A stretch of DNA of 64,000 bases from Eledone cirrhosa (Eukaryota): the NCBI GenBank assembly GCA_964016885.1, contig OZ024742.1:304544001-304608000 (forward strand), given 5' to 3'. A program made the translations under genes and the position numbers. Shown piece by piece: positions 13,023 through 62,472 of the stretch (positions within the stretch are counted from its first letter, which is position 1; each line of letters opens with the position of its first letter). The notes under the pieces were generated by a model, which worked only from the letters and a program-made list of their open reading frames with translations, searched no databases and was not told the origin of the DNA.

Positions 13023-13203
13023 ATATTTAATATAGAAATGGCTTCTACAGAACTAGAACTGTTTCATTCGATGGAAATCATAAGGAAATGATTTCCTTCG
13101 AATGAAACAGTTATAGTCCTGTAGAAACCATTTCTATATTAAATATTTATTCTAAGCTATGTATTGAGTACCTTATTTACTGTGGTTGCCCCCGATTGAA
13201 CCC

Positions 13204-18103: not shown

Positions 18104-18424
18104 CGGCGATGAATTAGTTATATAAACAGACTAAATAAAAATGGCGTAGAAAATACAATGCAACGGGAGGAAACAGTAGCACCACTGACGACGTTGCAGA
18201 TGTGCAACGAAAGAACTTTGATAAACTATATATATATGTGTTTGTGTCTATATTGTATCTGTATAATTTTGACCGTTGGTCAGTCAATGGCAACATTGAG
18301 GATCGAATAAATTAGATTACCGATATAAAAGACACAGAAGCGAAAAGCCAAAACCAACCAAACAGTGAGTGTGTTCTGTTATTAATTCTGGCAATATTAC
18401 ACAAATATGACCCTCTCCAAGTAT

Positions 18425-26857: not shown

Positions 26858-27002
26858 ACGTCTCGTAGTTTAGCGGTTCGACAAAACAGCAATCGATATC
26901 AGGAGGTAAATACATGGTAAAAAAATAAATCTTAACGTTATAATAGGTAAAAATCATTGCGGCGCACCAGGACTACCACAGATTTCTGACGGACCCATGC
27001 AG

Positions 27003-32928: not shown

Positions 32929-32972
32929 CACCACTGACGATGTTGCAGATGTGCAACGAAAGATTTATGATA
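32929..32972 (+). ncRNA. Degenerate minimal hammerhead motif in the PLE 3' region
   Basis: CTGACGA (32934-32940), stem II GTTGCA/TGCAAC, GAAA (32958-32961), GatTT-A; stem I weak. Confidence 0.55.

Positions 32973-39351: not shown

Positions 39352-39355
<4 letters not shown>
39259..39355. mobile_element. Tc1/mariner-type MITE
   Basis: cagggtgtccccaaaa-tatacac...gggtatacattgttttgaaacatccta imperfect TIRs; relative at 8674-8751. Confidence 0.6.
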
Positions 39356-39402
<47 letters not shown>

Positions 39403-39654
39403 AATAGAATGAAACGAAATTTCATTTCTCACTCTAATACGGCAGTTACTTAAATGTAAGTATGTATGTACATATATGTATACAGACGTACAGTAGTATG
39501 TATATATATACATACATGCACACATATATATATATGCACGTATCGGTTTACCGAACATTTATTATAATGCTCGGTTTGTAAACAAACAAACAGCCCGAAT
39601 TACGCCGTACAGTGTTTAGGCAACCACGTCACCTTTTTGTTCAACACTGACACA

Positions 39655-39709
39655 GGAACGATGTACTAGTTTCAAGCTTATTAGCTATCGTCAGCATCGT
39701 ATACCTTCC
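39655..39709 (-). ncRNA. Type I hammerhead ribozyme, copy 1
   Basis: Minus strand: GGA agguau ACGAUG-CUGACGA-u AGCU aaua AGCU u-GAAAC-UA-GUA^-CAUCGU UCC; complete core; predicted cleavage between 39664 and 39663. Confidence 0.92.
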
Positions 39710-39832
39710 TGCCAGATGGTTGAACGTCTGAAAGTATATACTTTCCTCATGCATATTAATGGCTGAGCAGCCTAATGTGCATATCGAGTGAGTTTAGTCG
39801 GCCGGGCGCAACGAAAACGATAAATGAAATAA

Positions 39833-39884
<52 letters not shown>

Positions 39885-39935
39885 GTCGTACAGTGTTTCG
39901 GCAACCACGTCACCTTTTTGTTCAACACTGACACA

Positions 39936-39990
39936 GGAACGATGTACTAGTTTCAAGCTTATTAGCTATCGTCAGCATCGTATACCTTCC
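39936..39990 (-). ncRNA. Type I hammerhead ribozyme, copy 2
   Basis: Identical to copy 1. Confidence 0.92.
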
Positions 39991-40113
39991 TGCCAGATGG
40001 TTGAACGTCTGAAAGTATATACTTTCCTTATGCATATTAATGGCTGAGCAGCCTAATGTGCATATCGAGTGAGTTTAGTCGGCCGGGCGCAACGAAAACG
40101 ATAAATGAAATAA

Positions 40114-40173
<60 letters not shown>

Positions 40174-40224
40174 GTCGTACAGTGTTTCGGCAACCACGTC
40201 ACCTTTTTGTTCAACACTGACACA

Positions 40225-40279
40225 GGAACGATGTACTAGTTTCAAGCTTATTAGCTATCGTCAGCATCGTATACCTTCC
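40225..40279 (-). ncRNA. Type I hammerhead ribozyme, copy 3
   Basis: Identical to copy 1. Confidence 0.92.
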
Positions 40280-40402
40280 TGCCAGATGGTTGAACGTCTG
40301 AAAGTATATACTTTCCTTATGCATATTAATGGCTGAGCAGCCTAATGTGCATATCGAGTGAGTTTAGTCGGCCGGGCGCAACGAAAACGATAAATGAAAT
40401 AA

Positions 40403-40458
<56 letters not shown>

Positions 40459-40509
40459 GTCGTACAGTGTTTCGGCAACCACGTCACCTTTTTGTTCAAC
40501 ACTGACACA

Positions 40510-40564
40510 GGAACGATGTACTAGTTTCAAGCTTATTAGCTATCGTCAGCATCGTATACCTTCC
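40510..40564 (-). ncRNA. Type I hammerhead ribozyme, copy 4
   Basis: Identical to copy 1. Confidence 0.92.
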
Positions 40565-40687
40565 TGCCAGATGGTTGAATGTCTGAAAGTATATACTTTC
40601 CCTATGCATATTAATGGCTGAGCAGCCTAATTTGCATATCGAGTGAGTTTAGTCGGCCGGGCGCAACGAAAACGATAAATGAAATAA

Positions 40688-40744
<57 letters not shown>

Positions 40745-40988
40745 AATATATAAACGGAGAAAGCCATTAGCGATACTTCGACCAATTTCCAACTCACTCA
40801 ACAAACATTAGGAAATACCGGAGTATATTCCCAATTAAACGTTTGGGGCGCTAACTATATTGTATTGTGTGGATAATTGGCTGTATTATTTTATATGAGA
40901 TATGTTAAAGATCTCATTCCCCAAACGAATCGTTTCATTATAAGATTTCTACATGGTGGGTGAAATTATACCAAGTTATGTAGGAGCT

Positions 40989-61977: not shown

Positions 61978-62407
61978 TAACAGATTGAAGTTTAAGCAAA
62001 TAATCGCTGCTTTCACCCTTATAGGGATCTTCTGAAACTAACAAAGTCAATCTGTGAACGCAGAAGTGAATATTTCAAAAAACGTATTTTCTTTGTAGAA
62101 ATATTTAAATGTTGTTTCTGCATGATGAATATAAGTCAATAGAGTGCTCAACCGAGCATATTCATTATGCAGAAACATCTGAATATTTCTACAGAGAACA
62201 TACGTTTTTTCAATATTCACTTCTGCGTTCACAGATTGACTTTGTTAGTTTCAGAAGATCCCGTTAAGGGTGAAAGCAGCGATTCTTTGCTTAAACTTTA
62301 ATCTATTATTTCAATAAATATTTGCTCTACGGTTCTTATATATTTGATATATATTTATCCTTATCGAGCCCTCTTTGGATTTTAGTCTTCAAATTTATTA
62401 TTATTAC

Positions 62408-62408
<1 letters not shown>
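61971..62408 (+). mobile_element. Fold-back element, family C (~160-bp inverted arms plus ~90-bp tail) in (TA)n
   Basis: Arms 61971-62132/62158-62315; tail 62316-62408 recurs inverted at 63397-63519 and 47690-47718. Confidence 0.85.
62231..62305 (+). ncRNA. Variant type I hammerhead-like motif
   Basis: AGAUUGA-bulge-AGUUU / CAGAAGA / u CCC guuaa GGG u / GAAAGCA..UGCU-U / AAACU-UUAAUCU; all three stems present, but the core has U4A and U17. Confidence 0.55.

Positions 62409-62472
<64 letters not shown>

What the first reader, a model, noticed from the sequence alone, without database searches (positions are those of the whole stretch)
39655..39709. Hammerhead appears to be an obligate dimer, with an unusual U.U at the base of stem II
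Seen: stem III is only AC/GU with a 2-nt loop, but ACUAGU is self-complementary. Stem I has a 6-nt bulge AGGUAU, and stem II is capped by AAUA and opened by U.U. Established: such mini stem IIIs work as double hammerheads (ASBVd, newt satellite 2), and bulge/loop-2 contacts activate type I ribozymes such as SMalpha. Inference: adjacent units would pair to form a 6-bp stem III, so cleavage would be switched on in multimers and off in monomers. The same U.U flanks stem II in the unrelated motifs at 13092-13103 and 62259-62271, suggesting a recurring structural variant.
Basis: partly seen in the sequence, partly recalled or inferred. Interest (0 to 1): 0.75.

Follow-up and report, generated by a model that had tools for sequence, protein, structure and literature searches.

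The report
Dimer-favoured hammerhead in an animal retrozyme
This is a real hammerhead (self-cutting RNA) motif, carried by a small non-coding jumping repeat with about 29,000 copies in this animal genome; it likely cuts best when two copies pair up, but both that pairing trick and its odd U·U mismatch are already published for other animals, so it is a new example of a known kind.

Summary
The hammerhead is real: minus strand, four copies in the window, with the stems, bulge, U10.1·U11.1 and ACUAGU palindrome as described. It belongs to a non-coding retrozyme family (monomer about 420-540 bp; 28,773 motif copies). The window's 285-bp units are a local, shortened derivative.

The dimer idea has comparative support. 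Of 44,478 U·U motifs, 43,527 have a palindromic helix III, and an unrelated family swaps ACUAGU for ACGCGU. "Obligate" is too strong: axolotl analogues cut 6-22% as monomers, 54 of 100 copies lack a tandem neighbour, and one two-armed insertion carries a broken palindrome in both arms.

U·U is the majority state here but interchangeable: sister lineages have G-C, A-U or C·A. It is published (axolotl HHR_Amex2; Perreault 2011), as is the monomer-off/multimer-on model. The 13092 motif comes from a true U·U hammerhead family but has lost its core; 62259 is not a hammerhead.

Insertions bear Penelope-type marks (head-to-head arms, two fixed ends, TA targets), a pattern this scan already noted for other families in this genome. 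Cleavage and expression are untested. New member of a known kind; interest 0.3.

The parts
39664..39694 (-). Type I hammerhead core of unit 4 (CUGACGA, U10.1, stem II with AAUA loop, U11.1, GAAA, ACUAGU palindrome, GUA cleavage triplet; predicted cut between 39664 and 39663)
39640..39725 (-). Extended stem I (about 22 bp, with the AGGUAU bulge at 39706-39701) that carries the core at its tip
   Evidence: covariation
39945..39975 (-). Hammerhead core of unit 3 (identical)
40234..40264 (-). Hammerhead core of unit 2 (identical)
40519..40549 (-). Hammerhead core of unit 1 (identical)
39401..39837 (-). Unit 4: the only complete retrozyme monomer (about 425 bp per turn); its 3' end is the family's 'long' fixed end, joined to (TA)n
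   Evidence: (joint 39825 to 39401)
39885..40692 (-). Units 1-3: shortened copies (234 bp plus a TA run; period 281-289) that lack about 190 bp of the monomer; their 3' junction occurs only at this locus
39354..39400 (.). (TA)n run at the 3' end of the insertion; further runs at 39838-39883, 40119-40172, 40408-40457, 40695-40752
40630..40637 (-). Octamer ATGCAAAT, 119 nt upstream of the cut; intact in unit 1, mutated in units 2-4
13040..13140 (.). Head-to-head junction of two truncated copies of an unrelated U·U hammerhead family (4-bp helix III); core C3-U4-G5 missing in both arms
62252..62275 (+). U·U-flanked hairpin in another repeat family; fails the hammerhead core and has no stem I

Best explanation
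The motif is a type I hammerhead in a non-coding tandem retroelement (a non-LTR retrozyme) with about 29,000 motif copies, and it likely cuts its RNA mainly as a double hammerhead, with weak leak as a monomer. Shown: the fold, the copy number, the 420-540-bp repeat unit, palindromic helix III in 98% of U·U motifs, and insertion as head-to-head arms with two fixed 3' ends in TA runs. Inferred: in a multimer transcript two units pair their ACUAGU hexamers into a 6-bp helix III and swap stem I strands, which forms two active sites and releases a unit-length RNA. A lone unit is predicted to hide C3-U4-G5 by pairing it with the UAG of helix III, which would slow re-cutting of a ligated circle. A Penelope-type reverse transcriptase would then copy the circle from two fixed internal start sites. 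U10.1·U11.1 is a tolerated weakening, not a required feature. The window's four-unit array is a local duplication of one insertion.
For: Core and three stems present; covariation in stems I and II across hand-picked lineage representatives (88.5% of cells paired, 0 of 500 shuffles as high; relatedness inflates this). Helix III: 28,773 UA + 14,754 GC = 43,527 of 44,478 U·U motifs are palindromic. Family B barely aligns with family A (score 45 against 28 +/- 5 shuffled) yet has ACGCGU, a double change that pairs only between two molecules; L147 has ACAUGU with an 8-bp stem I. Folding model: the double hammerhead costs less than one active monomer in 12 of 12 tandem pairs (window 4.4-5.3 against 7.6-7.7 kcal/mol), and non-palindromic loops add 6.5-10 kcal/mol. 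The monomer and circle folds sequester the core. Published analogues: axolotl HHR_Amex1 (one pair plus a palindromic tetraloop) and HHR_Amex2 (U·U) cut 6% and 22% as monomers and much better as dimers (PMC7229834). Insertions: 22 of 22 inverted clusters are head-to-head; 39 of 44 family A arm ends fall at two sites; 13 of 16 two-armed insertions have one long and one short end, matching the PLE 'tail' (PMC8557442, PMC11167929). L140 holds 16 near-identical units, as copying round one circle would give.
Against: No cleavage or expression data. The folding result depends on the boundaries: with longer 5' flanks the window's double hammerhead cost 10.0-10.9 kcal/mol, more than one monomer, and the model ignores core and tertiary contacts. 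The 98% figure comes from two expanded lineages, so it reflects about 2-3 independent changes, not thousands. 54 of the first 100 family A copies have no same-strand neighbour within 800 bp. Both arms of L143 have a non-palindromic AA loop, and L142 (2 of 11 units) and L144 (4 of 15) hold broken palindromes inside arrays. Apparent 5' ends do not pile up at the cut site (38 there, 56 at -1, 66 at +6). No autonomous partner was identified. In vitro, a Penelope element inserted uncleaved RNA, and 8 of 9 Xenopus retrozyme dimers did not cleave (PMC11167929; 10.64898/2026.07.22.740005).
Confidence: 0.62

Rival explanations
1. The motif works well as a monomer: the C(UA)G mini-loop, the bulge/loop-2 contact and bound proteins stabilise helix III, and the palindrome is a by-product of needing C15.2-G16.2 with a short loop.
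For: Most invertebrate retrozyme hammerheads cut efficiently as single units (coral 0.8/min, mussel 0.1/min; PMC7229834). 38 of 58 family A clusters are solo. L143 suggests a template with a broken palindrome was still copied. The Anolis PLE hammerhead is protein-assisted (PMC11167929).
Against: Every well-formed multi-copy lineage seen keeps a palindromic loop (UA, GC, AU), though only 4 of 16 dinucleotides are palindromic. The active monomer fold costs about 7.6 kcal/mol in the model. The closest structural analogue leaks only 6% in 1 h (PMC7229834).
Confidence: 0.18
2. Strictly obligate dimer: no monomer cleavage, with U·U as a selected part of the off-switch.
For: Helix III (2-nt loop) and the base of helix II are both weak, combining the defects of the two axolotl motifs. 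U·U is the majority state among the patterns counted: 44,478 + 26,985 against 16,938 without U10.1.
Against: Position 10.1-11.1 varies among successful lineages (G-C in family C, A-U in a family B lineage, C-G or C·A in D). The 13092-type family has U·U with a 4-bp helix III, so U·U is not tied to the mini helix. Axolotl monomers leak. U·U is reported as the most active mispair at this site (PMC3088659).
Confidence: 0.12
3. The ribozyme is nearly inactive or dispensable; uncleaved read-through multimers are the template and the motif is kept mainly as a structure.
For: PLE insertion in vitro did not need hammerhead cleavage (PMC11167929); 8 of 9 Xenopus dimers did not cleave (10.64898/2026.07.22.740005); no pile-up of 5' ends at the cut site.
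Against: All catalytic-core positions and an NUH triplet are invariant across families that share little else (partly by construction of the search). Arrays of near-identical units that differ between loci fit single-circle templates.
Confidence: 0.08

Closest known systems
Axolotl non-LTR retrozyme hammerheads HHR_Amex1 and HHR_Amex2 (Cervera and de la Pena 2020, PMC7229834; parts 1-4 of 6 read, supplement unreadable)
   Same: Type I hammerhead in short, low-GC tandem repeats at tens of thousands of copies. Amex1 has a single-pair helix III capped by a palindromic tetraloop; Amex2 has U·U at the base of helix II; both cut better as dimers.
   Different: Here both weaknesses sit in one motif, in an invertebrate-like genome, whereas the paper reports efficient monomer cleavage for most invertebrate retrozymes. 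The monomer is longer (420-540 bp). Head-to-head arms and fixed ends are not described in the parts read.
Canonical and minimal type I hammerheads of metazoans and Penelope-like elements (Cervera and de la Pena 2014, PMC4209133; parts 1-2 of 4 read)
   Same: Helix III of 1-2 bp with a 2-4-nt palindromic loop; dimer folding; the on-in-multimer, off-in-circle model is stated there.
   Different: That paper describes G10.1-C11.1 as highly conserved. This motif is canonical in size (6-bp stem I, 4-bp stem II), not minimal, and has no adjacent ORF.
U10.1-U11.1 hammerhead variant and palindromic stems III (Perreault et al. 2011, PMC3088659; passages and section 8 read)
   Same: Natural U·U at the base of stem II, described as the most active mispair; palindromic stem III in repeat-type ribozymes (Fig. 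S8 legend).
   Different: A rare variant there; the majority state in this genome.
Non-autonomous Penelope-like elements (Li et al. 2026, 10.64898/2026.07.22.740005, parts 1-3 of 5 read; Craig et al. 2021, PMC8557442, passages; Frangieh et al. 2024, PMC11167929, main text read)
   Same: Tandem and inverted insertions, TA-microsatellite targets, a one-sided tail between two RT start sites; retrozymes proposed as PLE derivatives.
   Different: No homology to an autonomous element was shown here. The tail is about 50 nt in family A, 25 in B and 70 in C, against 30-40 reported.

Membership tests
Type I hammerhead ribozyme | Core CUGANGA, GAAA, A15.1-U16.1 and NUH triplet in type I order | tested here: met
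Type I hammerhead ribozyme | Stems I and II supported by compensatory changes | tested here: met
   6 of 6 stem I pairs and 3 of 4 stem II pairs change on both sides (18 hand-picked rows)
Type I hammerhead ribozyme | Consensus G10.1-C11.1 pair | tested here: not met
   U·U in the window; a published tolerated variant (PMC3088659, PMC7229834)
Type I hammerhead ribozyme | Loop 1 / loop 2 tertiary contact | tested here: inconclusive
   U-A-A at the end of stem II and start of loop 2 is invariant and the bulge is G-rich across families; no contact was modelled
Type I hammerhead ribozyme | Rfam gathering score | tested here: not met
   best match HH9 17.6 bits (cut-off 52, E 0.054); no Hammerhead_1 match listed
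Type I hammerhead ribozyme | Site-specific self-cleavage | not testable with these tools
   needs an assay
Double (dimeric) hammerheads | Helix III too short to fold alone and self-complementary | tested here: met
Double (dimeric) hammerheads | Dimer cleaves much faster than monomer | not testable with these tools
   models favour the dimer in 12 of 12 pairs but not with longer flanks
Non-LTR (animal) retrozyme | Short tandem units, each with a canonical type I hammerhead, GC under 50% | tested here: met
   units 420-538 bp, GC 0.35-0.38; somewhat above the 150-450 bp range in PMC7229834
Non-LTR (animal) retrozyme | No coding capacity | tested here: met
   longest stop-to-stop frame inside the array is 95 aa and runs through TA repeats
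Non-LTR (animal) retrozyme | Expressed as linear and circular unit-length RNA | not testable with these tools
   no RNA holder listed
Penelope-mobilised non-autonomous element | Inverted 5' copy, TA-microsatellite target, one-sided tail | tested here: met
Penelope-mobilised non-autonomous element | Homology to the pLTR of an autonomous PLE | not tested
   the one profile search tried was not in the library

The most novel reading that the evidence does not exclude
The doubly weakened hammerhead is a like-with-like recognition switch. Cutting needs a partner with the same helix III palindrome and the same stem I, so co-resident retrozyme families (ACUAGU with two different stem I sequences, ACGCGU, ACAUGU) are processed as separate channels. 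Mismatched neighbours would be skipped and give dimer-length circles, which locus L141 (alternating ACAUGU/ACUAGU units with period-2 linked variants) may record. The circles are then copied by a Penelope RT from two fixed start sites.
Probability: 0.2. Interest if true: 0.6.

Novelty: new member of a known kind. Interest (0 to 1): 0.3.

Why it matters
The two features that drew attention are both in print, so the finding itself is modest. What it adds: a large natural series (more than 60,000 mini-helix-III motifs in at least three families) in which the palindrome and the 10.1-11.1 pair vary independently. That gives ready-made natural variants to test how much dimerisation and U·U each matter. 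It also shows an amphibian-like, dimer-type motif in an invertebrate-like genome, and Rfam misses the window's copy, so standard annotation probably undercounts these motifs. The insertion marks are direct genomic support for Penelope-type mobilisation of retrozymes, which a 2026 preprint argues from homology and co-occurrence only.

Tried and rejected
Expression: no RNA holder listed; only DNA-type contigs could be laid. Rfam over the whole window listed only microsatellite-driven miRNA-type matches among the 150 best of 165; the local scan gave one sub-threshold hammerhead match. Test for 5' ends at the cut site (lead from e1-9585305 and e1-8664355): 38 at the site, 56 at -1, 66 at +6, all lists including small deletions, so no enrichment; this is neutral for circular templates. 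The idea that the 285-bp unit is its own family was rejected: its 3' junction occurs 3 times in the genome, all in this array. The 62259 motif was rejected as a hammerhead. Rows E_L145, E_L148, E_L155 and the ACCGGU family (L074, L075, L078, L083) have poor stem I pairing and are not counted as lineages. The 18 of 18 palindrome pairing is by construction, because non-palindromic variants were left out of that alignment; it is not used as a frequency. The binomial line used a wrong count and is not used. A profile search for an autonomous PLE failed. Forster 1988 and Lunse 2016 were seen only as references; papers on newt satellite 2 (promoter, cleavage modes) could not be found or read. Searches 'hammerhead'+'octopus' (25 of 51 listed), 'ribozyme'+'hammerhead'+'cephalopod' (4 of 7) and 'retrozyme' (40 of 55) showed no title or abstract on a cephalopod retrozyme; the unread supplement of PMC7229834 (Fig. 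S6, invertebrate retrozymes) may hold one.

Full report
1. Observation. The motif is on the minus strand. It has stem I ACGAUG/CAUCGU, core CUGACGA at 39694-39688, U10.1, stem II AGCU/AGCU capped by AAUA, U11.1, GAAA, C-UA-G-U and A17, with the cut predicted between 39664 and 39663. The AGGUAU bulge is one valid register, and stem I runs on to about 22 bp. Four identical cores sit in a 285-bp tandem array. A full descriptor finds these 4 sites and none in 100 shuffles. Rfam scores the motif at only 17.6 bits (HH9, cut-off 52).

2. The element. The window lies in a 3.0-Gb, AT-rich, microsatellite-rich animal genome; an octopod is my recalled guess, shared by note e1-9596482 and not tested. The unit is a dispersed repeat: copies elsewhere are 96-97% identical, and their flanks repeat the same sequence on both sides, so the true monomer is a circular permutation of about 425 bp (joint 39825 to 39401). 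Only unit 4 (39401-39837) is complete. Units 1-3 lack about 190 bp, and their 3' junction is found only here (3 hits). All four share a 5' junction, and units 2 and 3 are identical outside the TA runs. I read the array as local duplication of one insertion (inference). There is no coding frame.

3. Families. The pattern with U·U and a 2-nt loop gives 44,478 hits (control 21): 28,773 with ACUAGU (family A) and 14,754 with ACGCGU (family B, 310-bp monomer), together 97.9%. The pattern without U10.1 gives 16,938 (control 358). It includes family C (G10.1-C11.1, ACUAGU, 466 bp, 290 of 410 aligned positions identical to A), a B lineage with A-U, and an A sub-lineage with C-G or C·A. On 18 hand-picked rows, stems I and II covary, while 10.1-11.1 is a standard pair in only 7 of 18. 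Non-palindromic variants were left out of that alignment, and 3 of the rows have poor stem I.

4. The dimer claim. For: family B barely aligns with A yet changes both loop bases and stays palindromic, and L147 has a third palindrome with an 8-bp stem I. That is about 2-3 independent events. Nearest-neighbour models favour the double hammerhead over one active monomer in 12 of 12 tandem pairs, and broken palindromes cost 6.5-10 kcal/mol more. The lone unit pairs C3-U4-G5 with the UAG of helix III, an inactive fold. The double form needs stem I strands to swap between units; it is nested and has no knot. Against: with longer flanks the window's double form cost more than one monomer (10.0-10.9 against 7.6 kcal/mol). 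Of the first 100 family A copies, 54 have no tandem neighbour (family B: 10 of 100). L143 has AA loops in both arms, and L142 and L144 hold broken palindromes inside arrays. In print, the matching axolotl motifs cut 6% and 22% in an hour as monomers and much better as dimers. The monomer-off, multimer-on model is stated in PMC4209133. 'Dimer-favoured and leaky' fits; 'obligate' is not shown.

5. The U·U claim. It recurs. The 13092 motif belongs to an unrelated family with an intact core at 26,985 places. That family has a 4-bp helix III, so U·U is not tied to the mini helix, and the window copy has lost its CUG at an inversion junction. The 62259 motif fails the core in 20 of 20 loci and has no stem I. 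U10.1·U11.1 is published as a natural variant and as the most active mispair, and it defines axolotl HHR_Amex2 with about 60,000 copies. Since G-C, A-U and C·A lineages also spread, it is tolerated rather than required (inference).

6. How it moves. Among the first 100 listed copies each of A and B, 22 of 22 inverted clusters are head-to-head and none tail-to-tail. In family A, 39 of 44 arm ends fall at two sites about 50 nt apart, mostly running into TA repeats by eye (some short-site calls may reflect the monomer's own TA-rich stretch). One long and one short end is seen in 7 of 10 A, 4 of 4 B and 2 of 2 C two-armed insertions. These are the marks of Penelope-like elements: inverted 5' copy, TA target and a tail between two RT start sites. 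I saw this before the look-up, which showed the scan had noted the same rule for other families in this genome (e1-8664019, e1-10313605, e1-9595527); a look-up by sequence found no note on this family. A 2026 preprint proposes a PLE origin from homology and co-occurrence. Arrays of near-identical units fit copying round a circle (L140). 5' ends are not enriched at the cut site, which is expected for circles but gives no proof of cleavage. No partner element was identified.

7. Verdict. A real type I hammerhead of a non-LTR retrozyme, likely dimer-favoured, likely moved by Penelope-type enzymes. Shown: structure, copy number, palindrome conservation, interchangeable 10.1-11.1 pair, insertion marks. 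Inferred: cleavage, dimer dependence, circles, the partner. Both highlighted features are published; only their combination in one invertebrate-type motif and the U·U majority were not seen in the papers read (searches; the supplement of PMC7229834 and those of the preprint were not seen and may bear on this). New member of a known kind; interest 0.3.

Noticed in passing
L141 (G000:C1:319891900-319898500): Array with period 2: units with ACAUGU alternate with ACUAGU units, linked to several other substitutions. It may record a dimer-length template, but period-2 patches also occur without palindrome differences (L117, L144).
   Followed up: partly
window 40630-40637 (-); families A and C: Octamer ATGCAAAT 119 nt (A) or 131 nt (C) upstream of the cut, absent in family B and in the L123 unit examined, mutated in window units 2-4. 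I recall an snRNA-type promoter for newt satellite 2 but could not retrieve the paper.
   Followed up: partly
window 13040-13140; loci L084-L092: A second very large U·U hammerhead family (26,985 pattern hits) with a 3-bp stem II, a 4-bp helix III and an 8-nt loop holding CUAG; often in head-to-head pairs; no tandem monomers in the loci seen.
   Followed up: partly
window 18185-18225 and 32934-32970 (+): Two related hammerhead-like motifs (CUGACGA, long stem II, GAAA) followed by TA runs; weak stems I and III; similar motifs in L077.
   Followed up: no
window 62150-62410: Repeat family (991 candidates) that ends in TA runs and has a fixed CAGAAGA...GAAAG hairpin; it also abuts a family A copy in L125.
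   Followed up: partly
L149, L150, L151, L061: Family A sub-lineage with C10.1·A11.1 or C-G and a GUU cleavage triplet.
   Followed up: no
G000:C1:5738326-5752444 (L152, L153): Family C insertion with about 31 tandem 466-bp units in one arm and one in the other.
   Followed up: partly
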